Notes: a model not told the origin generated them from the letters alone. Shown: positions 29,996-41,397, numbered from the stretch's first letter. The stretch: DNA of 64,000 bases from an uncultured virus (IMG/VR IMGVR_UViG_3300044540_000246) (IMGVR_UViG_3300044540_000246); one strand, 5' to 3'. Translations and numbers: made by a program.

Positions 29996-30123
29996 CCCCG
30001 AGGACCACAAGAGCCAACTCGGACGTGCCAACCGCTCCCCGCTCCCGGCCGTCCACCCGCCGCGACCGAGACCACGCCAGGATCCGCGGGAACTCGCGGC
30101 GACACGCCGGATTACCACCCCGT

Positions 30124-30420
30124 CGTACAGGGATGCTACACTCGGATAACCACGGGCCACTCCGACAACAAGCCGATAGGATGACCCAGCACCGCAACCC
30201 GCGGCGCACAGACTTCACGGAAGGAGGCAGCACCATGAGGACGAACTCCGTCACCATCACCGCAAGCGTCACCGCCTGCGCGATGAACGCTGCCGCCACC
30301 CAAACCCAGAACCTGGGATCGAAGCGCTTCCTCGGCACCTCCGGGCTCACGACCTGACCTGACCATCACACCAGGACAGTTCCAAGGGCCCCCGCCGACA
30401 GGCGACCGGGGCCCTTTCTC
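30124..30420 (+). promoter_or_regulatory. tRNA block 1 leader: promoter, 40-aa leader ORF (30235-30357), terminator hairpin (30384-30420)
   Basis: CGTACAGG-N5-TACACT; AAGGAGG RBS; AAGGGCCCC...GGGGCCCTTTCT; homologous to 39926-40205. Confidence 0.7.
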
Positions 30421-30678
30421 ATAGGTCCACCCAGTAGCACCCCTCAGACTTCACGGCCCTCCCGCGGGAGGCGCACTAGAACCACTTGACAACTCCACAG
30501 CGGACATGACGAATACGGGCCGACCCCACCGCGCCAACGGTGACCACGGGCAGGTCCGGCAACACACGTGGCACGCCAGACTCGACTCCCCACCATGGGG
30601 GGCGGGCGAGGGCGTTGCTCAACCGCACCCGCGGACGAGCACACCGAGACCTCGAGCGGACGGCCACTCTCGAGGCAC

Positions 30679-30747
30679 GCCTTCCGCGCCGGCGCGCGTC
30701 GGTCACTTGTAATGACTGGCTGCTCGGATCGACACCGAGGGGAGGCT
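30679..30747 (+). tRNA. tRNA-Thr(TGT)-like, degenerate D-arm and T-loop
   Basis: GCCTTCC/GGGAGGC acceptor; GGTCA-CTTGTAA-TGACT; CTCGG-ATCGACA-CCGAG. Confidence 0.55.
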
Positions 30748-30885
30748 CGACCCATAGACGCGTCTCGGTCCGAGCGCGATCGAACACGGGCAACTCTCAA
30801 AGCAGCAACCCGCCCACTACATCACCACCGGGAACAACGGGACAAGCAACGCGGAACCGCGAACCCGCGCATCGGACCAACACAT

Positions 30886-30961
30886 TGCCAGGTGCTCTGT
30901 TGGCAGGGGCAACCGGATTCTGACTCCGGGCACGACGCAGGTTCGATTCCTGCCCTGGCAG
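30886..30961 (+). tRNA. tRNA-Gln(CTG)
   Basis: CCGGA-TTCTGAC-TCCGG; GGTTCGATTCC. Confidence 0.85.
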
Positions 30962-31010
30962 CGGACCGGCGACGAGGTAAAGGCGCAGCCCCTCGTCGCC
31001 GCATCCCCAC

Positions 31011-31075
31011 AGCTCGCAGCGGATCGCACGGGACTCATAACCCCTACGCGCCAGGTTCGAATCCTGGGCGAGCTA
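31011..31075 (+). tRNA. tRNA-Met(CAT)-like, D-arm largely absent
   Basis: AGCTCGC/GCGAGCT acceptor; CTCATAA loop; CCAGG-TTCGAAT-CCTGG. Confidence 0.55.
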
Positions 31076-31076
31076 C

Positions 31077-31149
31077 GGTCGCATAGCTCAGTTGGTAGAG
31101 CATCTCGTTTACACCGAGCAGGTCGGGCGTTCAAGTCGTCCTGCGACCA
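31077..31149 (+). tRNA. tRNA-Val(TAC)
   Basis: Canonical cloverleaf, loop TTTACAC. Confidence 0.9.
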
Positions 31150-31160
31150 CTTCCGAGCGC

Positions 31161-31352
31161 CTGCAGCGCACAGGAGATAGAGGTTCGATTCCTCTCCACG
31201 TCAGCACGCCAACACCCCGCCTGAGAGGTAGCGCCCGGTTCAACTCCGGAACAGGCTCCGGAACCAGCAGCTGACGAGGTAGCTCAATGGCCCCAAGACC
31301 GCCCCCTGCCAGGGCGGACCCGCCCGCAGCGCGAGCGTACGCGAAGCTGCAG
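31161..31352 (+). ncRNA. Y-RNA (YrlA)-like circularly permuted tRNA mimic with insertions
   Basis: Order: closing stem, T-arm, closed acceptor-like helix, D-arm, closing stem with CGAAG bulge. Confidence 0.6.
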
Positions 31353-31388
31353 CCGAGAGGGATGGCAGGCACTCCCTCTCGGCAACTT

Positions 31389-31464
31389 GCCGCAATAGCT
31401 CAGTCGGTAGAGCACTTCCTTGGTAAGGAAGAGGCCTCGGGTTCAAGTCCCGATTGTGGCTCCA
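31389..31464 (+). tRNA. tRNA-Thr(GGT)
   Basis: Canonical, loop TTGGTAA, encoded CCA. Confidence 0.95.
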
Positions 31465-31465
31465 C

Positions 31466-31541
31466 GCTCGTGTGGCTCAGCTGGCAGAGCACCGCCTCGA
31501 CACGGCGGAGGCCCCTGGTTCAAGTCCAGGCGCGAGCACCA
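31466..31541 (+). tRNA. tRNA-Val(GAC)
   Basis: Canonical, loop TCGACAC, CCA. Confidence 0.92.
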
Positions 31542-31629
31542 CCCCGCCGACAGCGCCTCCGCCCACAGGAGACGCAGACAGCGGGACACCGCCGCCCGCA
31601 ACGCCGCCCAAGGGGTTGCGGGCGGCCCT

Positions 31630-31705
31630 GGGGATGTAGCTCAGCTGGTAGAGCGCGCGCTTCGCATGCGTGAGGTCAGGGGTTCGACTCCCCTCGTTTC
31701 CACCA
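31630..31705 (+). tRNA. tRNA-Ala(CGC)
   Basis: Canonical, loop TTCGCAT, G3:U70, CCA. Confidence 0.95.
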
Positions 31706-31739
31706 CCCGCCCGAGCGCAAGCCCGGACGGCGACCCAAC

Positions 31740-31812
31740 GGGGGCATAGCTCAGCCGGTAGAGCACCTGCATGGCATGCAGGGGGTCAAGGGTTCGAGTC
31801 CCTTTGCTTCCA
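31740..31812 (+). tRNA. tRNA-Ala(GGC)
   Basis: Canonical, loop ATGGCAT. Confidence 0.93.
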
Positions 31813-31909
31813 CTCCTTTGACCGGGCACGCGCCGCGACACGTAATCGCGGTCCAGGCGGCCAGGAGCGCAAACGGAAAGCCCCACCGTCCGAAGGGAAC
31901 GGGGCGCAT

Positions 31910-32000
31910 TCCGGTGTTGGTGCTGCTGGCAGGCACCACCTGACTGTTAATCAGGCGGGCGAGAGCCCCTCCGCAGGTTCGATTCCTGCCGCCGGAGCCA
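31910..32000 (+). tRNA. tRNA-Asn(GTT) with long variable arm
   Basis: CCTGA-CTGTTAA-TCAGG; variable hairpin GGGC-GAGA-GCCC; GCCA end. Confidence 0.85.
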
Positions 32001-32027
32001 CACCTCCGTTCGCCTCGGCGAACACAC

Positions 32028-32102
32028 GCCCGTCAAGCTCAGCGTTGGTGGAGCGCCCGGTTGAAGCCCGGGAGGTTGCCGGTTCGACCCCGGCGGTGGG
32101 CA
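32028..32102 (+). tRNA. tRNA-Phe(GAA)
   Basis: CCCGG-TTGAAGC-CCGGG. Confidence 0.85.
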
Positions 32103-32103
32103 C

Positions 32104-32190
32104 GGCTCTCTGGCGGAACAGGCAGACGCGCCGGCTTCAAATACCGGTGACCGTGAGGTCGTGCGGGTTCGACCCCCGCGAGAGCTACCA
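32104..32190 (+). tRNA. tRNA-Leu(CAA)
   Basis: Class II cloverleaf, loop TTCAAAT, CCA. Confidence 0.9.
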
Positions 32191-32215
32191 GTACCCTTGG
32201 CACGGGCGCGCATGA

Positions 32216-32301
32216 TCTCGAGTTGGTGCTGCTGGCAGGCACCACCTGACTGTTAATCAGGAGCCGCAAGGCCTTCGGAGGTTCGATTCCTCCCTCGAGA
32301 G
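32216..32301 (+). tRNA. tRNA-Asn(GTT) with long variable arm, second copy
   Basis: D and anticodon arms identical to 31910 copy; variable hairpin GCC-GCAA-GGC. Confidence 0.85.
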
Positions 32302-32354
32302 CGACCCGAGCTCCGGCTCGGACCCGCGGACCTCAGCGCGCACCCTGAGGGTAT

Positions 32355-32438
32355 GGCCCCTTGGCGGAACGGTAGACGCGCTGGTCTTAGGAACCAGTAT
32401 CGCAAGGTGTGCGGGTTCGAATCCCGTGGGGGCTACCA
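32355..32438 (+). tRNA. tRNA-Leu(TAG)
   Basis: CTGGT-CTTAGGA-ACCAG, CCA. Confidence 0.93.
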
Positions 32439-32511
32439 CCGTGCCGGCTCGCTGGCGCGAAGGATCGCAAGGTCCGACCGTTCGACGGCCCCGGCCGGCC
32501 GTCGAGCTTCC

Positions 32512-32583
32512 GCCTTCGTGGTCCAAGGGACACGACGCCGGTCTACGGAACCGGAGATTCAGGTTCGATTCCTGACGAGGGCG
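32512..32583 (+). tRNA. tRNA-Arg(ACG)
   Basis: CCGGT-CTACGGA-ACCGG. Confidence 0.9.
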
Positions 32584-32590
32584 CGCATTC

Positions 32591-32663
32591 GTCTCGTTAG
32601 CTCAATGGACAGAGCGCCACCCTCCGGAGGTGGAGGCTGCAGGTTCGACCCCTGCACGGGACA
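32591..32663 (+). tRNA. tRNA-Arg(CCG)
   Basis: CCACC-CTCCGGA-GGTGG. Confidence 0.92.
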
Positions 32664-32680
32664 CGCACGCCGCACCACGA

Positions 32681-32755
32681 TCCCCGCTGGTGTATTCGGC
32701 AGCACCCCTGCCTTTGGAGCAGGTAGACGAGGTTCGAACCCTCGACGGGGAGCCA
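32681..32755 (+). tRNA. tRNA-Gln(TTG)
   Basis: CCTGC-CTTTGGA-GCAGG, CCA. Confidence 0.9.
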
Positions 32756-32812
32756 CCCCACAGACCATCACGGCTCAGGCGCCACACGCCGGCCAGAACA
32801 GGAAGACTCACC

Positions 32813-33046
32813 ATGACCACCACCCAACCCCAGACGCGCGGCCGCGGCCGCCGCAACCACAGCTCGAAGCCCACCCAGGACGTCATCGTCGTCGGCGGTC
32901 AGAAGTTCAAGCTCGCCGACCTGCCTCTCGTCGCGTTCATCAAGACGTGCGGGCACCCCGGCCGCGACTTCGCCGTCCAGGCCGGCGACCTCGTCTTCTG
33001 CGACACCTGTCGCGAGCACACGAACGTCGCCCGCATCACCGCCTGA
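32813..33046 (+). CDS. Small putative Zn-binding protein inside tRNA array
   Basis: 77 aa, basic N-terminus, CGH...CDTC; AGGAAG RBS. Confidence 0.7.
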   Translation: MTTTQPQTRGRGRRNHSSKPTQDVIVVGGQKFKLADLPLVAFIKTCGHPGRDFAVQAGDLVFCDTCREHTNVARITA

Positions 33047-33089
33047 CCCGCCAGCGCTCACGCCAGGACGGGTCAGGCGCACCCATTCT

Positions 33090-33163
33090 GGCGTACTGGC
33101 CGAGCGGTCAGGCAGCGGCCTGCAAAGCCGTCCAGTCCGGTTCGACTCCGGAGTGCGCCTCCA
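33090..33163 (+). tRNA. tRNA-Cys(GCA)
   Basis: GCGGC-CTGCAAA-GCCGT, TCCA. Confidence 0.93.
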
Positions 33164-33164
33164 C

Positions 33165-33240
33165 GCGGATGCTGGGCGACTGGCCGCCCACCTGCCTTCC
33201 AAGCAGGCCCTAGCGGGTTCGAGTCCCGTCATCCGCTCCA
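33165..33240 (+). tRNA. tRNA-Gly(TCC)
   Basis: CCTGC-CTTCCAA-GCAGG, TCCA. Confidence 0.9.
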
Positions 33241-33331
33241 CCCCCGCACCACGCGCAGACCTCCGCGGAACGAGGTTAGGACGGCAACCTGCGCCCCCGC
33301 TCGACAGGGGAACCATGCGAACAGCCCCCAC

Positions 33332-33404
33332 CCCTCCGTAGCTCAGTTGGCAGAGCAGCCGGCTCTTACCCGGCGGGCCGCAGGTTCAAGTCCTGCCGGA
33401 GGGA
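33332..33404 (+). tRNA. tRNA-Lys(CTT)
   Basis: GCCGG-CTCTTAC-CCGGC. Confidence 0.9.
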
Positions 33405-33445
33405 CCGCCGTCGCGGGCGAGTGCGCTCGCCGATGAAAGACGATC

Positions 33446-33940
33446 ATGAAGACGTGCTCGCGATGCCGGCAGGACAAACCGCATTCGGACTTCCACCGAC
33501 ACTCCAGAATGCGAGATGGGCTGCAGCGCCAATGTAAGCAGTGCCGAGTGGAGATTAACCACGCGCACTACCTCAAGACGCGCGAAGCTCACCAAGCCGC
33601 GCGCCGCAGAGCCTCCCTGAAGGTTCGCGGCCGGAACAGGGCCATCGTCATGGAAGCCGCTCGAGATGGATGCGTGGAGTGCGGGGAGAAGGACTTCCGC
33701 GTCCTCGAGTTCGACCACGTGAGAGGCGTCAAGACGGCAGACATCTCGAAGATGATCAGCCACTCGGAGGAGCGACTCAGGGCGGAGCTTACCTTGTGCG
33801 AAGTACGATGCGCCAACTGCCACCGCCGTAAGACCGCCGAGAGAGCCGGCTGGTACAGGAACTGGACCGTAGGGGTCGAGGCGTTCGTTCCCTCCGATGG
33901 CAGTTCCACGCGATCACCCAACGTAGACGAGACGGGCTGA
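33446..33940 (+). CDS. HNH endonuclease with N-terminal Zn ribbon
   Basis: MKTCSRC...CKQC; CVECGE...LEFDHV...CANCHR. Confidence 0.9.
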   Translation: MKTCSRCRQDKPHSDFHRHSRMRDGLQRQCKQCRVEINHAHYLKTREAHQAARRRASLKVRGRNRAIVMEAARDGCVECGEKDFRVLEFDHVRGVKTADISKMISHSEERLRAELTLCEVRCANCHRRKTAERAGWYRNWTVGVEAFVPSDGSSTRSPNVDETG

Positions 33941-34010
33941 GAGCGGTCGATAGCTAGTAAGCCAGTTCTCCAGGCTGGCGGCGAGAGTTCGAATCTCGTC
34001 TTGTTGTTCC
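33941..34010 (+). pseudogene. Degenerate tRNA remnant
   Basis: Anticodon-like hairpin CCAGT-TCTCCAG-GCTGG and GAGTTCGAATCTC T-arm; no intact acceptor stem. Confidence 0.45.
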
Positions 34011-34039
34011 ACGCCATCTAGGGCCCCTGGGCGGCGCAT

Positions 34040-34115
34040 GCGGTCGTAGCTCAACTGGTAGAGCGTCGCCTTGCCATGGCGAAGGTTGCGGGTTCGAGTC
34101 CCGTCGACCGCTCCA
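34040..34115 (+). tRNA. tRNA-Gly(GCC)
   Basis: Canonical, loop TTGCCAT, CCA. Confidence 0.95.
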
Positions 34116-34174
34116 CGCCCTCCGCGGCCAAGCGGAGCGGTGACCGGTGCGGGATGCCCCTCGCGCCGCAACAT

Positions 34175-34247
34175 GCGGGCGTAGCTCAGCTGGCAGAGCG
34201 CGACCTTCCCAAGGTCGATGTCGCGAGTTCGACTCTCGTCGCCCGCT
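34175..34247 (+). tRNA. tRNA-Gly(CCC)
   Basis: Canonical, loop TTCCCAA. Confidence 0.95.
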
Positions 34248-34421
34248 CGCCCCGTGGCAGGTATCCGAGCACCTCAAGACCTCGGGATGCGTCACCCCGG
34301 CAGTCACGGGGTCATCAGCGGTCTGATGTAGCCATTGGAGCAGCTCGCCGGGCGGAGTACCGGAAGGAGCGCAGTGAGCGGCCGAGCAGGAGAGAGGGAG
34401 CCGACCTCGAGACCTGCGCAT

Positions 34422-34495
34422 GCCTCGTTAGCTCAACTGGTAGAGCAGGGAACTCATAGTTCACGGGCTTCCGGGTTCAAATCCCGGGCGGGGTA
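34422..34495 (+). tRNA. tRNA-Met/Ile2(CAT)
   Basis: Loop CTCATAG; Met versus lysidine-Ile not resolved by eye. Confidence 0.85.
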
Positions 34496-34554
34496 CGACG
34501 CCGGCAGCAGGGAACAGTCGGAGCGCACGCTCAGGCTCCTGTTGGTGGCGGCAT

Positions 34555-34631
34555 GCCGGGATAGCTCAGCAGGCCAGAGCGTCCCACTCGTAATGGGAAG
34601 GCCGCCGGTTCGACTCCGGCTCTCGGCTCCA
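34555..34631 (+). tRNA. tRNA-Thr(CGT)
   Basis: TCCCA-CTCGTAA-TGGGA, CCA. Confidence 0.93.
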
Positions 34632-34728
34632 CCCGACGCGCACCCAGGGTGCTGCGTCGGCCACTCTGACCCCACCGTCCGGTCGGAGGTTTCACCACCG
34701 CACGCACCACCGCGGGAGGACGGCACAC

Positions 34729-34811
34729 GTCGATGTGGCGGAATGGCAGACGCGCCAGCTTGAGGTGCTGGTATCTGAAAGGGTGTGAGAGTTCAAATCT
34801 CTCCTTCGACA
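34729..34811 (+). tRNA. tRNA-Leu(GAG)
   Basis: CCAGC-TTGAGGT-GCTGG, class II. Confidence 0.92.
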
Positions 34812-34840
34812 CGTAACACGCTCCGGCCAACGCCGGTATC

Positions 34841-34913
34841 GCCTCCGTAGCTCAGCTGGCAGAGCAGCTGACTTTTAATCAGCGGGTCGCAGGTTCGAAA
34901 CCTGCCGGGGGCA
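34841..34913 (+). tRNA. tRNA-Lys(TTT)
   Basis: GCTGA-CTTTTAA-TCAGC. Confidence 0.95.
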
Positions 34914-34961
34914 CCCCGAACCGATATAGCAACAGCCACGCGCACGGAAGAGAGCTAGTAG

Positions 34962-35126
34962 ATGACATCAGCCAGCCAATACGCCAGCGCTGCGCGGCCG
35001 CGGAAAGTAGCACGATTGACGTTGGCTGATGTTGCGCAGATCGTGTTGATGTTCGCTTTCGACCTCGCCGTCGCCGCCGGATTGTTTGCCGGCCTGGCTG
35101 TCATCGTCGCTACGGTTCTCCCGTGA
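34962..35126 (+). CDS. Small membrane protein inside tRNA array
   Basis: 54-aa ORF with hydrophobic C-half; GTGA overlap with next ORF. Confidence 0.5.
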   Translation: MTSASQYASAARPRKVARLTLADVAQIVLMFAFDLAVAAGLFAGLAVIVATVLP

Positions 35127-35326
35127 CCGGTCCTCGCATCGACGGCCGCACCAAGCACCTCATCTACTGCGAAGATTTCCACGATGCGGCGCGCGTAGCC
35201 GGCGCGATGGACCTGCACCTGAGCGCCTGGTGCTGGATCACCGACGTGAACGCACCCGCCGACCCGGTCGTGTTCACCCGCAACCCGAACCCGACAGCTG
35301 CGGCAGACACCACACTTCCCGCGTAG
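35123..35326 (+). CDS. Small hypothetical protein inside tRNA array
   Basis: 67-aa ORF coupled to the previous one. Confidence 0.55.
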   Translation: MTGPRIDGRTKHLIYCEDFHDAARVAGAMDLHLSAWCWITDVNAPADPVVFTRNPNPTAAADTTLPA

Positions 35327-35344
35327 CACCGCGCGGGACCCCTT

Positions 35345-35430
35345 GGAGAGTGAACCGGGCAGGGTCCCGGGACCGCCTCGAAAGCGGATCGAGCCGGCGA
35401 CGGTTTGGGTTTCGAGTACCTCGCTCTCCG
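35345..35430 (+). tRNA. tRNA-Ser(CGA), 8/4 type
   Basis: 8-bp acceptor GGAGAGTG/CGCTCTCC, 4-bp T-stem, long variable arm. Confidence 0.88.
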
Positions 35431-35437
35431 CGCACCG

Positions 35438-35526
35438 GGAGGATGAACCGACCAGGCGGTCGGGGCCGCCTTGAAAGCGGATCGAGCCGGCAACGGCTTG
35501 GGTTTCGAGTACTCCATCCTCCGCCA
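35438..35526 (+). tRNA. tRNA-Ser(TGA), 8/4 type
   Basis: GGAGGATG/CATCCTCC; loop CTTGAAA; GCCA. Confidence 0.88.
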
Positions 35527-35546
35527 CACCACAGCATCATCCCTTT

Positions 35547-35636
35547 GGAGAGTGAACCGGCCGGGGCGCCGGGCACGCCTGGAAAGCGTTGCGGACCCCA
35601 CGCGGGTCTGGGATTCGAGCTCCTCGCTCTCCGCCA
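35547..35636 (+). tRNA. tRNA-Ser(GGA), 8/4 type
   Basis: Loop CTGGAAA; GCCA. Confidence 0.88.
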
Positions 35637-35651
35637 CAGCATCATCCCTTT

Positions 35652-35738
35652 GGAGAGTGAACCGGCCAGGGTGCCGGCGCTCGTTGCTAGCGAGATGGGT
35701 CCTCCGGGACTGGGTTTCGACTACTCCGCTCTCCACCA
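35652..35738 (+). tRNA. tRNA-Ser(GCT), 8/4 type
   Basis: Loop TTGCTAG; ACCA end. Confidence 0.85.
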
Positions 35739-35836
35739 TGCACGTAGGGCAGGTAGCACGTTCGACTCGTGCGCGGGGGCGGTCCCCTAGACTGGCGGCA
35801 GCCGACCCTGGGAGTTCGACTCTCCAACGTGCAGCA
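35739..35836 (+). ncRNA. tRNA-like RNA with two T-arms and no canonical anticodon arm
   Basis: TGCACGT/ACGTGCA closing stem; GCACG-TTCGACT-CGTGC and GGAG-TTCGACT-CTCC. Confidence 0.55.
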
Positions 35837-35850
35837 GAACCTGGCTCAGC

Positions 35851-36046
35851 TCCCGTAGTGCCAGACGGGACGAGAGTCGCGCGGGCGCGAAGGCACTCCG
35901 CCGCGGTGCGATGCAGCACACCGACCAGCTGCACTGAGGTCGGCGGTCACCTTCCCGAGGCCGGGGAGATGACGCAGGAACACGGCAGTACCCGGCACGA
36001 GTGATGCATCTTCGGACTGCTCAACCCGGCAACCCCGACCGGCCTC
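35851..36046 (+). ncRNA. Candidate structured RNA with three tandem H-type pseudoknots
   Basis: Three stem-loops whose loops have perfect 6-nt downstream complements. Confidence 0.55.
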
Positions 36047-36050
36047 ACTT

Positions 36051-36122
36051 GCCTCGTTAGCTCAGCGGAAGAGCGTCCGGCTTCTAACCGGCGGGCCGCT
36101 GGTTCGACTCCAGCACGGGGCG
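36051..36122 (+). tRNA. tRNA-Arg(TCT)
   Basis: Loop CTTCTAA. Confidence 0.9.
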
Positions 36123-36157
36123 CTGACCGCCAAACGCCATGGGGCGGGCAACAGAAT

Positions 36158-36237
36158 GCGAGCGTATACCCTCACGCTGATAACGTGTCGAAAGGTTAGC
36201 TGGTGGCACGTGAGTTCGAATCTCACCGCTCGCACCA
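36158..36237 (+). tRNA. tRNA-Ile(GAT)-like, rearranged (no 5' D-arm, long segment after anticodon arm)
   Basis: GCGAGCG/CGCTCGC-ACCA; CACG-CTGATAA-CGTG; GTGAG-TTCGAAT-CTCAC. Confidence 0.7.
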
Positions 36238-36361
36238 CTCCGCAGATCCAGCAGTCAGACCACAGCCCCAGCGGAAGGGCAGCATGCAGTGGAGGTCTGA
36301 CCCCTGCGGTGGGCAGGGTCGCGCCAGGGCTCGGCGACAATCGGGCTCCCCACCACCTCAC

Positions 36362-36429
36362 GGGCTGCGCGCAGGGCGCGGGCCTCCCTTGCACGGAGGC
36401 CTTGAAGGGTTCGAGTCCCTTGCGGTCCA
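36362..36429 (+). tRNA. tRNA-Ala(TGC), short D-arm
   Basis: G3:U70 acceptor GGGCTGC/GCGGTCC; CCTCC-CTTGCAC-GGAGG. Confidence 0.7.
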
Positions 36430-36433
36430 CTCC

Positions 36434-36506
36434 GCCCGTGTAGCTCAGCGGAAGAGCTCCCGCCTCCTACGCGGGGAACGCCCCCGTTCGAACCGGGGCA
36501 CGGGCT
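36434..36506 (+). tRNA. tRNA-Arg(CCT)
   Basis: CCCGC-CTCCTAC-GCGGG. Confidence 0.88.
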
Positions 36507-36588
36507 CGAAAGTCGTCATGTCCGCTGCGGAGAAGTCGCCCTCCAGGTCTCGATGAATGCCGGTGCGAACAGGTATCCTGCACGGACG

Positions 36589-37575
36589 ATGATCCGTCAC
36601 CTGCCCACCCTTGCCGCACTGCTCGTCGCAGCCGTGCTGGCTTCTGCCGTGCCCGCGAACGCCGCCGGCGACAGCGGCAGCCGAGAGGGCGATGGCCGTG
36701 AGGGTCGCCCCAGCCCGCTCCTGCCCGGGTGGGCGCTGGACAGCATCGACGGGGCACTCGACGGCCGCTACGTGCTCGACCCGGCTTCGGCCGGGCAGGG
36801 CGTCGCCGTGTACGTCATCGACACCGGCGTCGACGCCAGCAGCACACAGCTCGCCAGACGGGTCTCGGGAGGGGTCTCGCTGCTTCCCGGCTCGGTCGGG
36901 ACGGGCGACTGTAACGGGCACGGCACCCGTGTCGCGCAGGCGATCGCAGGAACTACCGTCGGTGTAGCCCCGGCCGCGACCATCATCCCGGTCCGTGCGT
37001 TCGACTGCGCCGGCCGCGGCGACGGCGCCGGCATCGCGCCCGCCCTGAACTGGATCGTCGACCATCACCCTCCCGGTGAGCCCGGCGTGATCAACGTGTC
37101 CGCCGGCGGGTGGGCCGACCCGACCACCGACGCCGCTGCGCTCGCGGCGGTCCGCGCGGGGCTGGTCGTCGTCGTATCCGCCGGGAACACCGGCGGGGAC
37201 GCGTGCGACCGATCCCCTGCTCGCGTCCCCGCAGTCATTACTGTCGCCGCCGCTACGCCAGCAGGCGCTTACGCCGACTCCGCGACCGGCCGGTGCGTCG
37301 ACCTGTGGGCGCCGGGCGCGTCAGTCATCACCACGACCGACGCCGGCTACCGGCTTAGCTCCGGAACCAGTCTCGCGGCTGCATTCGTTGCAGGCGCGGC
37401 AGCTCGCTACCTGTCGGCGGACCCGGCGGCCTCCCCTGCCGACGTCGGCCGATGGCTGACCGACCAGGCGACGGCAGCGAGCGGGCCGACGGTCCCCGGC
37501 ACCGTCACTGCGACGCTGCAGCTCCCGGCAACGATCGCGCCCGTCCGCCACGACGTGCCCCGCGCTCGAATGTAG
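36589..37575 (+). CDS. Secreted S8 subtilisin-like serine protease
   Basis: Signal peptide; VIDTGV, NGHGT, SAGN, SGTSLA triad motifs. Confidence 0.92.
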   Translation: MIRHLPTLAALLVAAVLASAVPANAAGDSGSREGDGREGRPSPLLPGWALDSIDGALDGRYVLDPASAGQGVAVYVIDTGVDASSTQLARRVSGGVSLLPGSVGTGDCNGHGTRVAQAIAGTTVGVAPAATIIPVRAFDCAGRGDGAGIAPALNWIVDHHPPGEPGVINVSAGGWADPTTDAAALAAVRAGLVVVVSAGNTGGDACDRSPARVPAVITVAAATPAGAYADSATGRCVDLWAPGASVITTTDAGYRLSSGTSLAAAFVAGAAARYLSADPAASPADVGRWLTDQATAASGPTVPGTVTATLQLPATIAPVRHDVPRARM

Positions 37576-37703
37576 CGGCGCCTGCCGAGCGCGTCACGGG
37601 CATGCGACGCAGTGGCGGCGGCACAACTTCCGTCAGCCGATGTCGGCTCTGAGCAATAAAGTGAACCTGTACGCGCTTCGCGCGTCGGAACAGAAGAAGG
37701 ACC

Positions 37704-38585
37704 ATGAACGACACGCGCACCGCACTCCTCCCCACTGAGGCTATGCCGCGTCGTGTCGCGTTCGCCGGCGACTGGCACGGCAACACCATGTGGGCGCTCC
37801 ACTGCCTGCGCGAGCTCGCCGCCGCCGGCATTGACCGCATCTACCATGTCGGCGACTTCGGCCTGTGGCCCGGCGAGTCCGGCGCAGCATTCCTCCGCAA
37901 GGTCGACGCGCACGCCACCCGCTACGGCATCACCATCGACGTCACCCTCGGCAACCACGACGACTACGACCGGTTCGCGCAGCTTCGCGCCGACGAGGAC
38001 GGCTGGCTGCGAACCAAGCACACCCCCGCACTCCGGTTCGCTCCCCGCGGCCACACATGGGAGGACCACGGAGTCCGGTTCGCGTCCCTCGGCGGCGCCG
38101 GCAGCATCGACCGGAACCTCCGCACCGCCGGCCGCGACTGGTGGCCCGACGAAGCGATCGGTCGCGACGACGTCCGGACCCTCGCCGCCAACGTGACTGC
38201 GCGAGGCTGGGACCGAGTCGACGTCCTCATCACCCACGAAGCACCCGCCGGCCTGACCCGCCGCGGGTTCGCCGTCATGCCCCGCTGGGCAACCCCCGAC
38301 GTTCAGCAGTACTGCTGGGAGCAACGAGTCCGACTCCGCCACGCAACCGACCTGGTGATGCCGCACACCCTCGTCCACGGCCACTGGCACGAATGGCACC
38401 ACGACGAGCTCCACGGTGTCGGCCCCGGCGACTCAGGCGCAGAGTACGTCACCGACGTGTTCTCCCTGTCCGCCGACGGCGACGTCCGCAACCTCATCAC
38501 CGCTGAGCTCATCCCGTACGTCGGCGTGACCGACCCGCAGCTGCCGCTCATCTCGAGCGGCCGCGCCGCCCGCCGAACCGCATGA
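37704..38585 (+). CDS. Calcineurin-like metallophosphoesterase
   Basis: GDWHG, VGDFG, GNHD, THEAP, HGHWH. Confidence 0.92.
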   Translation: MNDTRTALLPTEAMPRRVAFAGDWHGNTMWALHCLRELAAAGIDRIYHVGDFGLWPGESGAAFLRKVDAHATRYGITIDVTLGNHDDYDRFAQLRADEDGWLRTKHTPALRFAPRGHTWEDHGVRFASLGGAGSIDRNLRTAGRDWWPDEAIGRDDVRTLAANVTARGWDRVDVLITHEAPAGLTRRGFAVMPRWATPDVQQYCWEQRVRLRHATDLVMPHTLVHGHWHEWHHDELHGVGPGDSGAEYVTDVFSLSADGDVRNLITAELIPYVGVTDPQLPLISSGRAARRTA

Positions 38586-39085
38586 CGACCGGCCAAACGG
38601 GCAGCGCCGACCGCCTCATGGACCTCGTCTGCGGCAGCGACCCCGCCGACCTTGCCGTCGTCGTCCAACGCGGTGACCTGCGGACCGAGCACCTCGAAGC
38701 CCTCGCCGAACGCATCGTGTCTACCTGGGCCACGGTCGACGCCACCGAAGGCGCCTACATCTGGCTCGCCGGCAGCCGGCTCACCCAACGCGGGAGCCTA
38801 CCCCCAGCCGCCATCGAGACCCTCGCCCGGCACCCCGACCCGAGCATCCGCGCCCGCATCGCCGACCGACCCGACCTGCCGGGAGCGCTCGCTCGCCAGC
38901 TCGCAGGCGACGACGACCCGAAGGTCGCCCGCTACATCGCCAACAACGCCGCCGTCGCCGAAGAGATCCGCATCCTCGCCGCCCTAAACGCAGCCAGCGG
39001 CGACAGACCCCGAGCCGGGACGCCATCAGGGGCACCTGCAACGCCGAGGCGCGCGCACCCACAGCCGACCGGAAATCAACCATGA
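38582..39085 (+). CDS. LRV/HEAT-like repeat protein
   Basis: LARHPDPSIRARIA, IANNAAVAEEIRILAAL. Confidence 0.7.
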   Translation: MTTGQTGSADRLMDLVCGSDPADLAVVVQRGDLRTEHLEALAERIVSTWATVDATEGAYIWLAGSRLTQRGSLPPAAIETLARHPDPSIRARIADRPDLPGALARQLAGDDDPKVARYIANNAAVAEEIRILAALNAASGDRPRAGTPSGAPATPRRAHPQPTGNQP

Positions 39086-39201
39086 CCATCAACCATGACC
39101 CGGATGACGCCCGCAACCTCATAGCCGCCGTACTCATCCCCTACGTCGGCGTGACCAACCCGCGGCCGCCCCTCCTCGCCCCTCCCGCGAAAGATCGATA
39201 G
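39082..39201 (+). pseudogene. Duplicated C-terminal fragment of the metallophosphoesterase gene
   Basis: DDARNLIAAVLIPYVGVTNPRPPL matches GDVRNLITAELIPYVGVTDPQLPL (about 38478-38550). Confidence 0.65.
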
Positions 39202-39203
39202 GC

Positions 39204-39659
39204 ATGCTCCGCCGCGCGCTCGACGCCCTACTCGCCCGCCCGCCCGCAGAGCAGGAGGGGGACTGGCTGTCGCCCCTCATCCGAACGGCGCCCTTCGCCG
39301 ACCTGGTTGAATGCGCCAACCGGGACGACCTCGAGCCCCACCACTACATCCTGCTCGCCGAGCGTTTCGCGACCCAACGAGCCGAAAGCGAAACGGAGAC
39401 CTACGAGGGCTGGTACTTCGCGATGCTGCTCCTCGACGACCCGAAGACCCCCGAAGAAGCGCTCCGCACCATCGCCAAGCGCGCCGACAGCACCCTCCTG
39501 CTCATGCTCGCCGGACGGAACGACATCCCCGACGACCTCGCCCTCGAGCTCGCCGCGCACCCCCTCTACGCCATCCCGGCCGCGATCGTCGCGAACCCGG
39601 CAACCAGCGACGACGCACGAACCATCGCCACCCTCAACCTCGGCGCCAACCAAACGTAA
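39204..39659 (+). CDS. LRV/HEAT-like repeat protein, paralog of 38582-39085
   Basis: DLEPHH..LAER; IVANPATSDDARTIATL. Confidence 0.7.
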   Translation: MLRRALDALLARPPAEQEGDWLSPLIRTAPFADLVECANRDDLEPHHYILLAERFATQRAESETETYEGWYFAMLLLDDPKTPEEALRTIAKRADSTLLLMLAGRNDIPDDLALELAAHPLYAIPAAIVANPATSDDARTIATLNLGANQT

Positions 39660-39925
39660 GAGCACATGAGGGCAGGTCCCCAGCAGAAAGCCACTCGGGG
39701 CACCACAGCGTTCGCCGACCGCATCGAGACGGAAGCGCGCGCCAACGACGCCGGCAAGAACTCCAGCCAGATGCGCCGCGCGCCGAACATGCGAAGCTGA
39801 TACCGGACATGACCGAGCGCCTCACCGAAGCGACCCCGGCCGCCACCAACCCAGCCCTCGGACGTGCCAACTCAACCCAGCTGCGCACGTCCGACGACAC
39901 GGCCTAAACTCGCAGGAACACAAGC

Positions 39926-40205
39926 CGTACAGGTGTGCTATACTCGTACCAGAGGCGAATGTGACGGGCCACCCGCAACAGACGCCGATAGAGCACCAGC
40001 ACATCAGCACCCCGAACCGCAGGAAAGGAGAACCGAGATGACCGAACGCTACGCCCACGTCATCCCGGCCTTCGTCGATCCTGCGCACGAGTGGCCCTAC
40101 TCGGCCGTCCCGAACGGGAGCTGCATGTGAAAGCCTGACCACCAGGCTCACCATGAAGCCGCCTCGCACGGGACCACACCCCGAGCAGGCGGCTTCAGTC
40201 GTTTC
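39926..40205 (+). promoter_or_regulatory. tRNA block 2 leader: promoter, 30-aa leader ORF (40038-40130), terminator hairpin (40154-40197)
   Basis: CGTACAGG-N5-TATACT; AAAGGAG RBS; TGAAGCCGCCT...AGGCGGCTTCA-GTCGTTT. Confidence 0.7.
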
Positions 40206-40226: not shown

Positions 40227-40311
40227 ATGGGCGTCGCGTAGCGGCTATCGCAGCGGTCTCCAAAACCGCCGACCTAGGTCACCGTGGGTTCGAGTCCCAC
40301 CGCCCATGCCA
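40227..40311 (+). tRNA. tRNA-Trp(CCA) with long variable arm
   Basis: GCGGT-CTCCAAA-ACCGC; variable GACC-TA-GGTC; GCCA. Confidence 0.85.
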
Positions 40312-40336
40312 CACAACTAAACACGCACCACCACCC

Positions 40337-40413
40337 GCCGTGAGCGCTGGGACGCAAGGGAGGCTGTAACCCTCTCCCCACTGGGTAGACGAGTTCGATT
40401 CTCGGGCACGGCA
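40337..40413 (+). tRNA. tRNA-Tyr(GTA), short atypical D-arm
   Basis: GGAGG-CTGTAAC-CCTCT; variable arm; GAGTTCGATTCTC. Confidence 0.65.
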
Positions 40414-40434
40414 CGCACCACAACACAACACCGA

Positions 40435-40509
40435 CTGGCTGTAGCTCAGAGGAAGAGCGCCCACCTTGGGAGTGGGAGGCCCCCGACTCGAACTCGGGCA
40501 GCCGGACCA
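40435..40509 (+). tRNA. tRNA-Pro(TGG)
   Basis: CCCAC-CTTGGGA-GTGGG; atypical T-loop CTCGAAC. Confidence 0.82.
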
Positions 40510-40538
40510 CCCCCGAATGGGACATAACTCAACAACGA

Positions 40539-40612
40539 CTGGCTGTAGCTCAGCAGGAAGAGCGCTAGCTCGGGGAGCTAGAGGCCCGGCGGTTCGAGCC
40601 CGCCCAGCCAGA
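40539..40612 (+). tRNA. tRNA-Pro(GGG)
   Basis: CTAGC-TCGGGGA-GCTAG. Confidence 0.88.
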
Positions 40613-40645
40613 CGCACCACCAACAACTCAACACGCACCACATGA

Positions 40646-40721
40646 CCGGGTGTGGGGAAGCTTGGCCATCCCGCCTGCCTCGGACGCAGGAGTATCGCAG
40701 GTTCAAATCCTGCCATCCGGA
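40646..40721 (+). tRNA. tRNA-Pro(CGG)
   Basis: CCTGC-CTCGGAC-GCAGG. Confidence 0.9.
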
Positions 40722-40762
40722 CTCAACAACTCAACAATGAATAGCGCGCAACGCGCACGCAT

Positions 40763-40840
40763 GGTGGCCGTAGCTCAGATGGTTAGAGCGTCCGACTGTG
40801 ACTCGGAAGGTCGCGAGTTCGAGCCTCGTCGGTCACCCCA
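40763..40840 (+). tRNA. tRNA-His(GTG)
   Basis: G-1:C73, loop CTGTGAC, CCA. Confidence 0.95.
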
Positions 40841-40841
40841 T

Positions 40842-40914
40842 GCCCCCATCGTTTAGAGGCCAAGGACACCGCCCTTTCACGGCGGCGGCGCCGGTTCGAA
40901 TCCGGCTGGGGGTA
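40842..40914 (+). tRNA. tRNA-Glu(TTC)
   Basis: CCGCC-CTTTCAC-GGCGG. Confidence 0.93.
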
Positions 40915-40939
40915 CGAACAACTCAATAGTGAATGTCTT

Positions 40940-41013
40940 GGTCCCGTGGAGCAGTTGGAGTGCTCGCCACCCTGTCACGGTGGAGGTCGCCGGTTCGAGT
41001 CCGGTCGGGATCG
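40940..41013 (+). tRNA. tRNA-Asp(GTC)
   Basis: CCACC-CTGTCAC-GGTGG. Confidence 0.95.
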
Positions 41014-41044
41014 CAAGGCTCTTGGCAGGCGTGCTGGGAGCTCA

Positions 41045-41228: not shown

Positions 41229-41242
41229 GCGGTTCGCGCTTT

Positions 41243-41313: not shown

Positions 41314-41397
41314 GCGCTCCATCCCGGCTGCGGATAGTGGGCGTGTCTCAGTTTCGAGGCGCGCCAGAAGGAGGGATGACTCTCGCGCAGCCGCTTT

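What the first reader, a model, noticed from the sequence alone, without database searches (positions are those of the whole stretch)
30124..40205. Two homologous leader-peptide/terminator cassettes gate the two tRNA blocks (putative translation-sensing attenuators)
Seen: 30124-30420 and 39926-40205 share, in order, CGTACAGG-N5-TA(C/T)ACT, ACGGGCCAC...CAACA...GCCGATAG, a strong AAGGAG RBS, a short ORF (40 and 30 aa, unrelated sequences), CCTGACCA just after the stop, then a GC hairpin followed by T-rich bases, directly before tRNAs. The ORF 3' ends can pair with the 5' terminator arm (GGGCTC with GGGCCC; GCTGCATG with CATGAAGC). Established: actinobacterial whiB7/wblC is controlled by uORF-dependent attenuation, and some bacterial tRNA arrays are induced by translational stress. 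Inference: ribosome stalling on the leader allows antitermination and turns on a backup tRNA set.
Basis: partly seen in the sequence, partly recalled or inferred. Interest (0 to 1): 0.85.

Follow-up and report, generated by a model that had tools for sequence, protein, structure and literature searches.

The report
Translation-sensing gates before tRNA gene blocks
Two related control cassettes on an uncultured high-GC mobile element (large phage or megaplasmid) each put a tiny translated gene and a stop/anti-stop RNA hairpin ahead of a block of tRNA genes, and each tiny gene is spelled in the codons its own block reads, so they probably switch tRNA production on when ribosomes stall.

Summary
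Both cassettes (about 30018-30416 and 39857-40197) carry, in the same order, a shared 15-mer, a promoter motif, a leader motif, a strong ribosome-binding site, a short ORF (40 and 30 codons), a CCTGACCA hairpin and a strong GC hairpin. Correction 1: the "promoter" motif is a dyad, GTACAG-N5-CTNTAC, found at 8 sites in the window (0.17 expected). One of them heads an RNA-repair operon, so it is an element-wide operator/promoter. Correction 2: cassette B ends 29 nt before tRNA-Trp, but cassette A ends 469 nt before the first ARAGORN tRNA and 660 nt before the first Rfam-supported one.

New evidence for the attenuator reading is that the leaders mirror their tRNA blocks. Leader A has 35 of 40 codons readable by block-1 tRNAs and none by block-2, and engages 22 of 25 block-1 anticodons (0 of 12918 control windows reach both). 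Leader B engages 8 of 8 block-2 anticodons, and its heptapeptide DPAHEWP holds all five block-2 amino acids (71 of 13318 windows hold such a 7-mer). An antiterminator pairing exists but is not statistically exceptional. No relatives and no RNA data were found. Verdict: probable whiB7-like attenuators of tRNA genes (about 0.55). I found no published account of this control for tRNA genes.

The parts
30018..30032 (+). Shared 15-mer CTCGGACGTGCCAAC upstream of promoter A
   Evidence: Identical 15-mer in both cassettes.
30124..30142 (+). Operator/promoter A: dyad GTACAG-N5-CTACAC at 30125-30141, with TGc and the -10 hexamer TACACT at 30137-30142
   Evidence: No conserved -35 element.
30152..30179 (+). 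Leader motif A: ACGGGCCAC-N11-GCCGATAG
30221..30227 (+). Ribosome-binding site AAGGAGG, 7 nt before ATG
30235..30357 (+). Leader ORF A, 40 codons (MRTNSVTITASVTACAMNAAATQTQNLGSKRFLGTSGLTT). It has no D, E, P, H, W or Y.
   Evidence: 35 of 40 codons readable by block-1 tRNAs, 0 by block-2. GC3 is 0.88.
30343..30392 (+). Candidate antiterminator A: GGGCUC (30343-30348) pairs with GGGCCC (30387-30392), enclosing the post-stop hairpin CCUG/CAGG (30355-30378)
   Evidence: -19.2 kcal/mol for 30336-30396. It is the minimum-energy fold when the terminator's 3' arm is absent.
30384..30416 (+). Terminator-like hairpin A, tail TTTCTCAT
   Evidence: -25.6 kcal/mol. Not listed by the consensus scan.
30886..36507 (+). 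tRNA block 1: 26 ARAGORN tRNAs for Q, V, T, A, N, F, L, R, C, G, K, M. It is interrupted by a 77-aa ORF (32813-33046) and an HNH endonuclease (33446-33940).
39857..39871 (+). Shared 15-mer upstream of promoter B
39926..39944 (+). Operator/promoter B: dyad at 39927-39943, -10 hexamer TATACT at 39939-39944
39964..39991 (+). Leader motif B: ACGGGCCAC-N11-GCCGATAG, predicted to lie within a 5' stem-loop
40025..40030 (+). Ribosome-binding site AAGGAG, 7 nt before ATG
40038..40130 (+). Leader ORF B, 30 codons (MTERYAHVIPAFVDPAHEWPYSAVPNGSCM). Codons 14-20 (DPAHEWP) hold all five block-2 amino acids.
40120..40158 (+). Candidate antiterminator B: GCUGCAUG (40120-40127) pairs with CAUGAAGC (40151-40158), enclosing the post-stop hairpin 40132-40148
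   Evidence: -22.4 kcal/mol for 40108-40168.
40154..40197 (+). Terminator-like hairpin B, tail GTCGTTTCC, 29 nt before tRNA-Trp
   Evidence: -31.0 kcal/mol. Not listed by the consensus scan.
40227..41474 (+). tRNA block 2: Trp, Pro x3, His, Glu, Asp, Asp, Glu (9 tRNAs, 8 distinct anticodons)
22326..22342 (-). The same dyad/promoter, ahead of the RNA-repair operon: RlaP-type nucleotidyltransferase, polynucleotide kinase-phosphatase, an unknown 399-aa protein and a T4 Rnl1-like RNA ligase (22305 down to 18073)
26702..26718 (+). The same dyad/promoter, ahead of ORF170 (26770-27282), hairpin 27303-27350, a pilin-like gene and CutA1
27353..27371 (+). Third, partial copy of the leader motif (ACGTGCCAC directly followed by GCCGATAG), downstream of the 27303-27350 hairpin and upstream of the pilin-like gene (27433)

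Best explanation
The two cassettes are paralogous, whiB7-like leader-peptide transcription attenuators in front of the two tRNA blocks of a large uncultured high-GC mobile element (phage or megaplasmid) from fresh water.

Proposed mechanism:
1. Transcription starts at an operator-overlapped promoter that the element also uses for its RNA-repair operon and other units.
2. The transcript carries a short, efficiently initiated ORF.
3. The last codons of that ORF form the 5' strand of an antiterminator helix. This helix ties up the 5' arm of a strong GC hairpin.
4. A ribosome that reaches the stop codon covers that strand. The terminator hairpin then folds and most transcripts end before the tRNAs.
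5. A ribosome that stalls earlier leaves the antiterminator in place, and RNA polymerase runs on into the tRNA genes.
6. Leader A is written only in codons read by block-1 tRNAs, plus Ser and Ile. Leader B carries a cluster of all five block-2 amino acids. Each gate would therefore respond to shortage of the tRNAs (or amino acids) that its own block supplies.

Shown here: the shared anatomy, the coding signature of the ORFs, the codon/tRNA match, and the existence of the alternative pairing.
Inferred: termination at the hairpins, the switch itself, its direction, and what causes stalling (for example host tRNA cleavage during infection).
For: 1. Two cassettes share the same ordered elements at similar spacing.
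2. The ORFs look translated. Each has AAGGAG(G) 7 nt before ATG, and GC at codon positions 1/2/3 is .41/.63/.88 (A) and .58/.52/.87 (B).
3. Codon match for leader A. 35 of 40 codons are readable by block-1 tRNAs, 0 by block-2, and 5 by neither. It engages 22 of 25 block-1 anticodons. Among 12918 39-codon windows drawn from 40 ORFs of the window, 32 reach 22 or more anticodons, 13 have no block-2 codon, and 0 do both; 0 of 200000 random codon draws do both.
4. Codon match for leader B. It engages 8 of 8 block-2 anticodons (277 of 13318 windows do). The heptapeptide DPAHEWP holds all five block-2 amino acids (5 of 14198 7-mers do; 71 of 13318 29-aa windows hold such a 7-mer).
5. When the terminator's 3' arm is left off, the minimum-energy fold pairs the last ORF codons with the terminator's 5' arm in both cassettes. 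The antiterminators are -19.2 and -22.4 kcal/mol against terminators of -25.6 and -31.0. A ribosome at the stop codon would cover exactly that strand; this follows from the geometry and is an inference.
6. Only 29 nt separate hairpin B from tRNA-Trp, so block 2 must be transcribed through the hairpin.
7. The leader regions fold better than shuffles (z = -3.83 and -5.82).
8. Leader peptide A has no homologue among 1.84 billion cluster representatives other than itself, as expected for a leader whose sequence as such is not conserved.
9. There is precedent for the logic. In whiB7, efficient uORF translation gives a Rho-independent terminator and stalling gives an antiterminator. The amino-acid content of the uORF decides what is sensed, and knock-down of tRNAs or tRNA synthetases activates it (passages of 10.1101/2023.06.02.543512).
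Against: 1. No RNA data exist for this DNA and no relative was found, so termination, read-through and covariation are all untested.
2. The complementarity between ORF end and terminator arm is ordinary for this GC-rich DNA: 13.6% (A) and 15.5% (B) of genomic 24-mers pair as well.
3. At equilibrium the terminator stays formed whatever the ribosome position (probability 0.75-0.97 for A, about 0.98 for B). Only a kinetic switch is possible.
4. Hairpin A is 469 nt from an ARAGORN-only tRNA and 660 nt from the first Rfam-supported tRNA, with unassigned sequence in between.
5. The U-tracts are weak, and the consensus terminator scan listed neither hairpin.
6. The same layout of promoter, first ORF, strong hairpin and distal genes occurs at 26701-27350 with a 170-aa ORF. 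A 77-aa ORF plus hairpin also precedes tRNA-Cys inside block 1. Such hairpins may therefore be generic.
7. Both leaders also contain Ser, Ile and (B only) Tyr codons for which the window holds no tRNA, and 15 of leader B's 30 codons are block-1 codons.
8. The codon statistics were devised after looking at the peptides.
9. Three cultured Streptomyces phages that turned up through the RlaP protein match show no such cassette at their array heads (0 of 3).
Confidence: 0.55

Rival explanations
1. These are ordinary transcription units of the element. A repressor-controlled promoter (the dyad operator overlapping the -10 hexamer) drives a small protein gene followed by a leaky terminator or stabilising hairpin, and the tRNAs are made by constitutive read-through. 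Regulation, if any, acts at the operator, as TrcR does on the Anabaena trn tRNA operon and rtcB.
For: - The dyad GTACAG-N5-CTNTAC occurs at 8 sites against 0.17 expected. Seven of the 8 lie in intergenic DNA no more than 95 nt upstream of an ORF start. The sites include the RNA-repair operon and units without tRNAs.
- The same layout of promoter, ORF and hairpin occurs at 26701-27350, and ORF77 plus a hairpin precedes tRNA-Cys.
- In Anabaena a long tRNA array and a tRNA-repair ligase share an operator overlapping the -10 box and are de-repressed under translational stress (passages of PMC8421152; abstract and passages of PMC10272220).
- The antiterminator pairing is not exceptional, and the terminator is dominant at equilibrium.
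Against: - It does not explain why leader A avoids every block-2 amino acid while sampling 22 of 25 block-1 anticodons, nor why leader B clusters all five block-2 amino acids.
- It does not explain why a -31 kcal/mol hairpin sits between the promoter and tRNA-Trp.
- No ribbon-helix-helix or helix-turn-helix regulator was found among the ORFs scanned, although the window is only part of the element.
- This rival is compatible with the attenuator reading as a second layer of control.
Confidence: 0.3
2. The hairpins are RNA processing or stability elements rather than terminators. The small mRNA and the tRNAs are co-transcribed, the tRNAs are cut out, and the hairpin protects the 3' end of the upstream mRNA.
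For: - The U-tracts are weak and neither hairpin was called by the terminator scan.
- Strong hairpins without T tails recur between tRNAs and after ORFs in this region (27303-27350, 29566-29612, 31582-31630, 33040-33079).
- Satis and Frankenweenie have a hairpin, without any ORF, between a promoter-like TAGAGT and tRNA-Trp.
Against: - It does not explain the codon/tRNA match, or that a hairpin beginning CCTGACCA sits just after the stop codon in both cassettes and is enclosed by the predicted antiterminator pairing.
- Hairpin A has a TTTCTCAT tail and an A-rich 5' flank, as intrinsic terminators do.
Confidence: 0.1
3. The cassettes are decaying duplicates of one promoter/leader module. The short ORFs are chance open frames, and the codon match is coincidence.
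For: - The ORF sequences are unrelated and differ in length.
- Fragments of the module lie elsewhere: GCCGATAG at 27364, and CAGACTTCACGG at both 30209 and 30445.
Against: - GC3 is 0.87-0.88 with much lower GC1 and GC2 in both frames, and both have strong ribosome-binding sites.
- Conservation is block-wise rather than uniform.
- The codon statistics argue against chance.
Confidence: 0.05

Closest known systems
whiB7/wblC uORF transcription attenuator of actinobacteria
   Same: Both have a promoter-proximal uORF of tens of diverse codons, followed by an antiterminator/terminator pair. In whiB7, efficient translation gives termination and stalling gives read-through. The uORF's amino-acid content decides what is sensed, and depletion of tRNAs or tRNA synthetases activates it (passages of 10.1101/2023.06.02.543512).
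   Different: Here the regulated genes are tRNAs, not a WhiB-family regulator, and no WhiB gene lies downstream. There is no sequence homology (Rfam found nothing in the cassettes). Leader A is 17.5% Ala against a 15.1% background, so it is not Ala-tuned. There are two copies, each with a codon set matched to its own tRNA block, and the promoter carries a dyad operator.
Classical leader-peptide attenuators of amino-acid operons (trp, his, leu, and the multivalent thr and ilv leaders)
   Same: The leader codons name the product of the controlled genes. Stalling selects an antiterminator over a terminator. (Recalled knowledge; the parallel is also drawn in the Discussion passage of 10.1101/2023.06.02.543512.)
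   Different: The product here is the tRNA itself, not the amino acid. The leaders are longer (30-40 codons), with sensing codons spread along the ORF (A) or in a mixed cluster (B). No segment-1-type pairing inside the ORF was identified. The model relies on the terminating ribosome melting the antiterminator.
Anabaena sp. PCC 7120 trn operon (long tRNA array) under the TrcR repressor
   Same: A long accessory tRNA array on a mobile replicon is co-regulated with a tRNA-repair ligase gene through a shared operator overlapping the -10 box, and is induced by translational stress (PMC8421152 passages; PMC10272220 abstract and passages).
   Different: The operator sequence differs (TGTAGTAT-type repeats there, the GTACAG-N5-CTNTAC dyad here). 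No ribbon-helix-helix gene was found in this window. Anabaena has no reported leader ORF or terminator between the promoter and the tRNAs; ours has both.
Phage T4 tRNA region with polynucleotide kinase and RNA ligase repair of cleaved tRNA
   Same: A tRNA cluster with an inserted homing-type endonuclease, plus kinase-phosphatase and Rnl1-like ligase genes on the same element. The T4 repair paradigm is as cited in PMC10264068 passages.
   Different: I know of no leader-peptide gate in T4 (recalled). The element here is high-GC and carries 35 tRNAs in two gated blocks.

Membership tests
Leader-peptide (uORF) transcription attenuator | A short translated ORF between the promoter and the regulated genes | tested here: met
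   AAGGAG(G) lies 7 nt before ATG. The ORFs are 40 and 30 codons with GC3 of 0.88 and 0.87. Translation itself was not measured.
Leader-peptide (uORF) transcription attenuator | An intrinsic terminator between the leader ORF and the regulated genes | tested here: inconclusive
   There are strong GC hairpins of -25.6 and -31.0 kcal/mol. The U-tracts are weak, neither hairpin was listed by the consensus scan, and hairpin A lies 469-660 nt from the tRNAs.
Leader-peptide (uORF) transcription attenuator | An antiterminator, mutually exclusive with the terminator, that overlaps the leader ORF | tested here: inconclusive
   It is present as the minimum-energy fold of the truncated transcripts in both cassettes. 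The complementarity is not exceptional (13.6% and 15.5% of genomic 24-mers), and the terminator dominates at equilibrium.
Leader-peptide (uORF) transcription attenuator | Leader codons related to the function of the controlled genes | tested here: met
   Leader A: 35 of 40 codons are block-1, 0 are block-2, and it engages 22 of 25 anticodons (0 of 12918 windows match both). Leader B: 8 of 8 block-2 anticodons, and the DPAHEWP cluster (71 of 13318 windows).
Leader-peptide (uORF) transcription attenuator | Read-through responds to leader translation | not testable with these tools
   No RNA run holds the sequence. The organism is uncultured.
whiB7/wblC leader (homologous family) | A WhiB7-family gene downstream and an alanine-enriched uORF | tested here: not met
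   The downstream genes are tRNAs. Leader A has 7 Ala in 40 codons against a 15.1% background. There is no Rfam or sequence match.
TrcR-type repressor control of a long tRNA array | An operator overlapping the -10 box, shared by the tRNA array and tRNA-repair gene promoters | tested here: met
   The dyad overlaps TAYACT at 22326(-), 26702, 30125 and 39927. There are 8 sites against 0.17 expected.
TrcR-type repressor control of a long tRNA array | A TrcR (ribbon-helix-helix) repressor and its TGTAGTAT-type site | tested here: not met
   No ribbon-helix-helix or helix-turn-helix regulator was found among the ORFs scanned against Pfam. The motif differs from the published site. The window is only part of the element, so a repressor elsewhere is not excluded.
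Any curated RNA family (Rfam 15) | A covariance-model match in the cassettes | tested here: not met
   Among the 49 matches at E<=1 in 21000-43000, none falls in 30018-30416 or 39857-40197.

The most novel reading that the evidence does not exclude
Each tRNA block of this element is under its own homeostatic, block-specific decoding sensor. The sensor is a leader mini-gene that works as a test track, sampling just the codons that the block's tRNAs read. The element would then replace exactly those tRNA species that have become limiting (for example after cleavage by host anticodon nucleases) and shut the block off again once decoding recovers. A shared dyad operator would tie both gates to the tRNA-repair operon as one translation-rescue regulon.
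Probability: 0.35. Interest if true: 0.85.

Novelty: new variant of a known kind. Interest (0 to 1): 0.72.

Why it matters
Why phages and megaplasmids carry large tRNA sets, and when they express them, is still debated. The main ideas are codon compensation and replacement of host tRNAs destroyed by defence nucleases (PMC10264068 passages).

A leader peptide written in the codons of the downstream tRNAs would be a direct, cis-encoded read-out of decoding capacity. It would extend the attenuation principle of the amino-acid operons and whiB7 to tRNA genes themselves. It would also predict that accessory tRNA arrays are inducible, and that the two blocks can be induced separately.

My full-text searches found no description of leader-peptide attenuation of tRNA genes: searches returned no such paper among the 12, 15 and 3 papers listed, judged from titles and abstracts.

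The cassettes are compact (about 300 nt) and easy to test with reporters. They could also serve as sensors of tRNA-targeting defence or of translation stress.

Tried and rejected
**Search for relatives (all without result)**
- Promoter pattern in viral contigs: 52 loci. None shows blastn similarity to the window, and only 1 has GC above 0.6.
- 20-mer promoter pattern in genome contigs: 4 loci in non-actinobacterial genomes, with no relation beyond one 22-nt match.
- The same pattern in metagenome contigs: 10 loci, no blastn hit. The window itself is not in that collection.
- Leader-motif pattern in viral contigs: 18 loci, all apparently chance matches inside coding DNA.
- Protein-guided scans with the CCA-adding enzyme (3 loci, 37-39% identity, one tRNA each, no motif) and the metallophosphatase (1 locus, 31%).
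- Megablast against phages found only isolated tRNA matches. Against plasmids, one search found nothing and the other only tRNA-sized matches.
- Distant blastn of each cassette against phages: no match.
- No whole genome is held for the window.

**Sequencing runs**
- No RNA holder is listed. Seven runs are listed and 5 hold the DNA or part of it.
- Laying contigs of 4 runs gave identical sequence over both cassettes (X1 and X3 long pieces with 0 other letters; X4 and X5 151-nt pieces identical). There were therefore no variants to analyse.

**Other searches**
- Rfam found nothing in the cassettes.
- Leader peptide A against 1.84 billion representatives returned only itself and two long low-complexity proteins.

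**Tests of the mechanism**
- Equilibrium folding with a masked ribosome footprint gave no switch. I treat this as uninformative about a kinetic switch.

**Generalisation to cultured phages**
- BRock's array head has a canonical TTGACA-N16-TATAAT promoter and no leader, and its small intra-array proteins show no composition match.
- Satis and Frankenweenie have a promoter-like site plus a hairpin but no ORF before tRNA-Trp.
- A mycobacterial plasmid array has a divergent helix-turn-helix gene and a 93-aa ORF upstream, and no obvious cassette.

**Readings rejected**
- GCCGATAG as a -10 promoter element: TAGAGC lacks the final T in 2 of the 3 leader-context copies.
- A separate promoter between hairpin B and tRNA-Trp: only 29 nt are available.

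Full report
**Setting.**
- The window has about 69% GC. It carries 35 plus-strand tRNA genes in two blocks: 26 in 30886-36507 and 9 in 40227-41474. Rfam confirms most of them, adds one at 36158-36234, and does not list the first, tRNA-Gln at 30886.
- Around the blocks lie:
  - a minus-strand RNA-repair operon: RlaP-type nucleotidyltransferase, polynucleotide kinase-phosphatase, a 399-aa unknown protein and a T4 Rnl1-like ligase (22305 down to 18073);
  - a dUTPase;
  - a CCA-adding enzyme with an HD domain;
  - pilin-like proteins, CutA1, an S8 protease and a metallophosphatase;
  - DNA methylases;
  - an HNH endonuclease inside block 1;
  - cellular-type genes: SecA-like, Clp ATPase, MetK, RecX, RNase HII and the C-terminal part of DnaE.
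- The RlaP protein is closest to those of large Streptomyces phages (up to 58% identity; 154 phage records matched). The SecA-like protein is only about 44% identical to actinobacterial SecA.
- The DNA is held by freshwater and freshwater-sediment metagenome runs, and no whole genome is held for it.
- I read it as part of a large phage or megaplasmid of a high-GC, probably actinobacterial, host. Which of the two it is remains open.

**Check of the observation.**
The two regions fold better than shuffles (z = -3.83 and -5.82).
- The promoter-like motif needs correcting. CGTACAGG-N5-TAYACT is also exact at 26701 and has one mismatch at 22325 on the minus strand.
  - It reads better as a dyad, GTACAG-N5-CTNTAC. 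This gives 13 strand matches at 8 sites (5447, 10977, 13240, 22326, 26702, 30125, 37656, 39927) against 0.17 expected, and 0 of 100 shuffles reach 13.
  - Seven of the 8 sites lie in intergenic DNA no more than 95 nt upstream of an ORF start. The eighth lies 5 nt from one.
  - At four sites the 3' half-site plus T forms a TAYACT -10 hexamer, preceded by TGc in three of the four. There is no conserved -35 element.
  - It is therefore an element-wide operator/promoter. One copy heads the RNA-repair operon.
- The distance to the tRNAs also needs correcting. Hairpin B ends 29 nt before tRNA-Trp, but hairpin A ends 469 nt before an ARAGORN-only tRNA and 660 nt before the first Rfam-supported one.
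- Smaller points:
  - The homology starts further upstream, with a shared 15-mer at 30018 and 39857.
  - A partial copy of the leader motif (ACGTGCCAC directly followed by GCCGATAG) lies at 27353-27371 before the pilin-like gene.
  - The consensus terminator scan listed neither hairpin.

**Are the short ORFs real?**
- Both have AAGGAG(G) 7 nt before ATG. GC by codon position is .41/.63/.88 (A) and .58/.52/.87 (B), the coding signature of this genome.
- Peptide A has no relative among 1.84 billion cluster representatives except itself, which shows that the gene was called in a metagenome. There is no Pfam match.

**The new evidence: leaders mirror their tRNA blocks.**
- The two blocks serve disjoint amino-acid sets: block 1 serves Q, V, T, A, N, F, L, R, C, G, K and M; block 2 serves W, P, H, E and D.
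- Leader A:
  - It has no D, E, P, H, W or Y.
  - 35 of its 40 codons are readable by block-1 tRNAs, none by block-2, and 5 (Ser x4, Ile) by no tRNA in the window.
  - It uses all four Ala codons, three Gly codons and both Gln codons, and so engages 22 of 25 distinct block-1 anticodons.
  - Among 12918 39-codon windows from 40 ORFs of this window, 32 reach 22 or more anticodons, 13 have no block-2 codon, and none does both. None of 200000 random codon draws does both.
- Leader B:
  - It engages 8 of 8 block-2 anticodons (277 of 13318 windows do).
  - Codons 14-20, D-P-A-H-E-W-P, hold all five block-2 amino acids. Only 5 of 14198 7-mers do so, and 71 of 13318 29-aa windows hold such a 7-mer.
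- These tests were devised after I had read the peptides.
- Against a perfect match, 15 of B's 30 codons are block-1 codons, and both leaders contain Ser, Ile or Tyr codons that nothing in the window reads.

**RNA structure.**
- The hairpins are strong: -25.6 kcal/mol (A) and -31.0 kcal/mol (B).
- A small hairpin beginning CCTGACCA follows each stop codon.
- When the terminator's 3' arm is left off, the minimum-energy fold pairs the last ORF codons (A 30343-30348, B 40120-40127) with the terminator's 5' arm and encloses the small hairpin. These folds are -19.2 and -22.4 kcal/mol.
- A ribosome at the stop codon would cover exactly this 5' strand. A ribosome stalled eight or more codons upstream, such as on B's sensor cluster, would not. 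This is geometry and inference.
- Two results go against the structure carrying weight on its own:
  - The complementarity is ordinary for this DNA: 13.6% and 15.5% of genomic 24-mers pair as well.
  - At equilibrium the terminator stays formed wherever a footprint is masked (A 0.75-0.97, B about 0.98).
- The structure is therefore compatible with a kinetic switch but does not prove one.

**Generic features that weaken the case.**
- The unit at 26701 has the same layout with a 170-aa first ORF and a -40.9 kcal/mol hairpin.
- A 77-aa ORF followed by a hairpin precedes tRNA-Cys inside block 1.
- Strong hairpins recur between tRNAs.

**Comparison with known systems.**
- whiB7. Passages of bioRxiv 10.1101/2023.06.02.543512 state that efficient uORF translation gives a Rho-independent terminator and stalling gives an antiterminator. 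They also state that the uORF's amino-acid content decides which starvation is sensed, and that knock-down of tRNAs and tRNA synthetases activates the system. The cassettes work like this on paper. They are not members of that family: no WhiB gene lies downstream, there is no homology, and there is no Ala enrichment.
- Anabaena trn array. [quoted passage not shown] This is the best analogue of the shared dyad operator, and it is the main rival or complement to the attenuator reading.
- Literature on tRNA-gene attenuation. My searches for it listed no paper describing it, judged by titles and abstracts.

**Relatives.**
- None was found by DNA pattern, protein-guided or BLAST searches.
- Contigs of four runs are identical over the cassettes.
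- Three cultured Streptomyces phages and one mycobacterial plasmid with tRNA arrays lack such cassettes at the array head.

**Earlier notes of this scan.**
- I consulted them only after my own codon analysis.
- They describe leader-ORF/terminator gates before tRNA blocks in several other uncultured, mostly lake-water, phages. Some have leaders built from the amino acids of their array.
- I did not check those claims. I use them only as a sign that this may be a recurrent design.

**Verdict.** The two cassettes are real paralogous regulatory modules. The most likely reading (about 0.55) is a whiB7-like, translation-sensing attenuator gating each tRNA block, layered on an element-wide operator-controlled promoter. 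The main rival (about 0.3) is that they are ordinary small-gene units with leaky hairpins, regulated only at the operator.

Noticed in passing
window 31910-32000 and 32216-32302: Two tRNA-like genes have a GUU (Asn) anticodon loop but a long variable arm and an unusually long D stem. They share identical D and anticodon arms. Rfam scores them weakly (33 bits as tRNA-Sec, 32.2 bits as tRNA). They may be hybrid-identity tRNAs.
   Followed up: partly
window 30963-31076 and 36158-36234: 30963-31076 is a tRNA-like stretch with a canonical T arm and a CAU-containing loop that neither ARAGORN nor Rfam called. At 36158-36234 Rfam calls a tRNA (32.3 bits) that ARAGORN missed; its structure is irregular.
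   Followed up: partly
window 33446-33940; L090 10733-11227: An HNH endonuclease gene (phrog_2255, E = 1.2e-32) sits inside tRNA block 1. A gene annotated as an HNH endonuclease sits inside the 28-tRNA array of a Mycobacterium intracellulare plasmid in the same way.
   Followed up: partly
window 18073-24594: A full RNA-repair set is present: an RlaP-type nucleotidyltransferase, a kinase-phosphatase, an unknown 399-aa protein and an Rnl1-like ligase in one minus-strand operon. A dUTPase and a divergent CCA-adding enzyme with an HD domain lie next to it. The operon is headed by the same dyad operator as the tRNA cassettes.
   Followed up: partly
L071 3285-3407 (Streptomyces phage Frankenweenie): An annotated 40-aa CDS ends in K-D-D-R-Q-N, 7 nt before a run of tRNA-Lys, Arg, Asp, Phe, Gln and Asn. 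There is no hairpin in between, and the ORF is absent from the equivalent spacer of phage Satis.
   Followed up: partly
L071 about 2440-2510; L095 about 1330-1400: In Frankenweenie and Satis, a conserved promoter-like GCGGTAGAGT is followed by a CCGGGAGG...CCCGG hairpin directly before tRNA-Trp at the head of the array. No ORF is involved.
   Followed up: no
window 27433-29556 and 7590-9266: Two large proteins have an N-terminal prepilin-type methylation motif: one of 707 aa, and one of 558 aa with RCC1 repeats. This is unusual on a putative phage or plasmid of a high-GC host.
   Followed up: no
window 30209-30220 and 30445-30456: The 12-mer CAGACTTCACGG lies just before the ribosome-binding site of leader A. 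It recurs 29 nt after terminator A, where a CCCTCCCGCGGGAGG hairpin follows. It may be a remnant of a duplicated leader in the 469-nt unassigned spacer.
   Followed up: no
window 45448-47976, 52625-55000, 11089-12375, 49883-50575, 47976-48626, 62449-63963, 1339-2196: The element carries divergent copies of cellular genes: SecA-like (about 44% identity to actinobacterial SecA), a Clp ATPase, MetK, RecX, RNase HII, the C-terminal part of DnaE, and VKOR.
   Followed up: partly
window 51567-52607: A 346-aa ORF has a PemK/MazF-like toxin domain in residues 172-270 (E = 5.8e-07), fused to an unassigned N-terminal part.
   Followed up: no
window 13240-13256: This is the most symmetric copy of the dyad (GCACAG-GGGAC-CTGTAC). 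It lies 15 nt upstream of a 42-aa hydrophobic ORF (13271-13399) that precedes an endonuclease/exonuclease/phosphatase-family gene.
   Followed up: no
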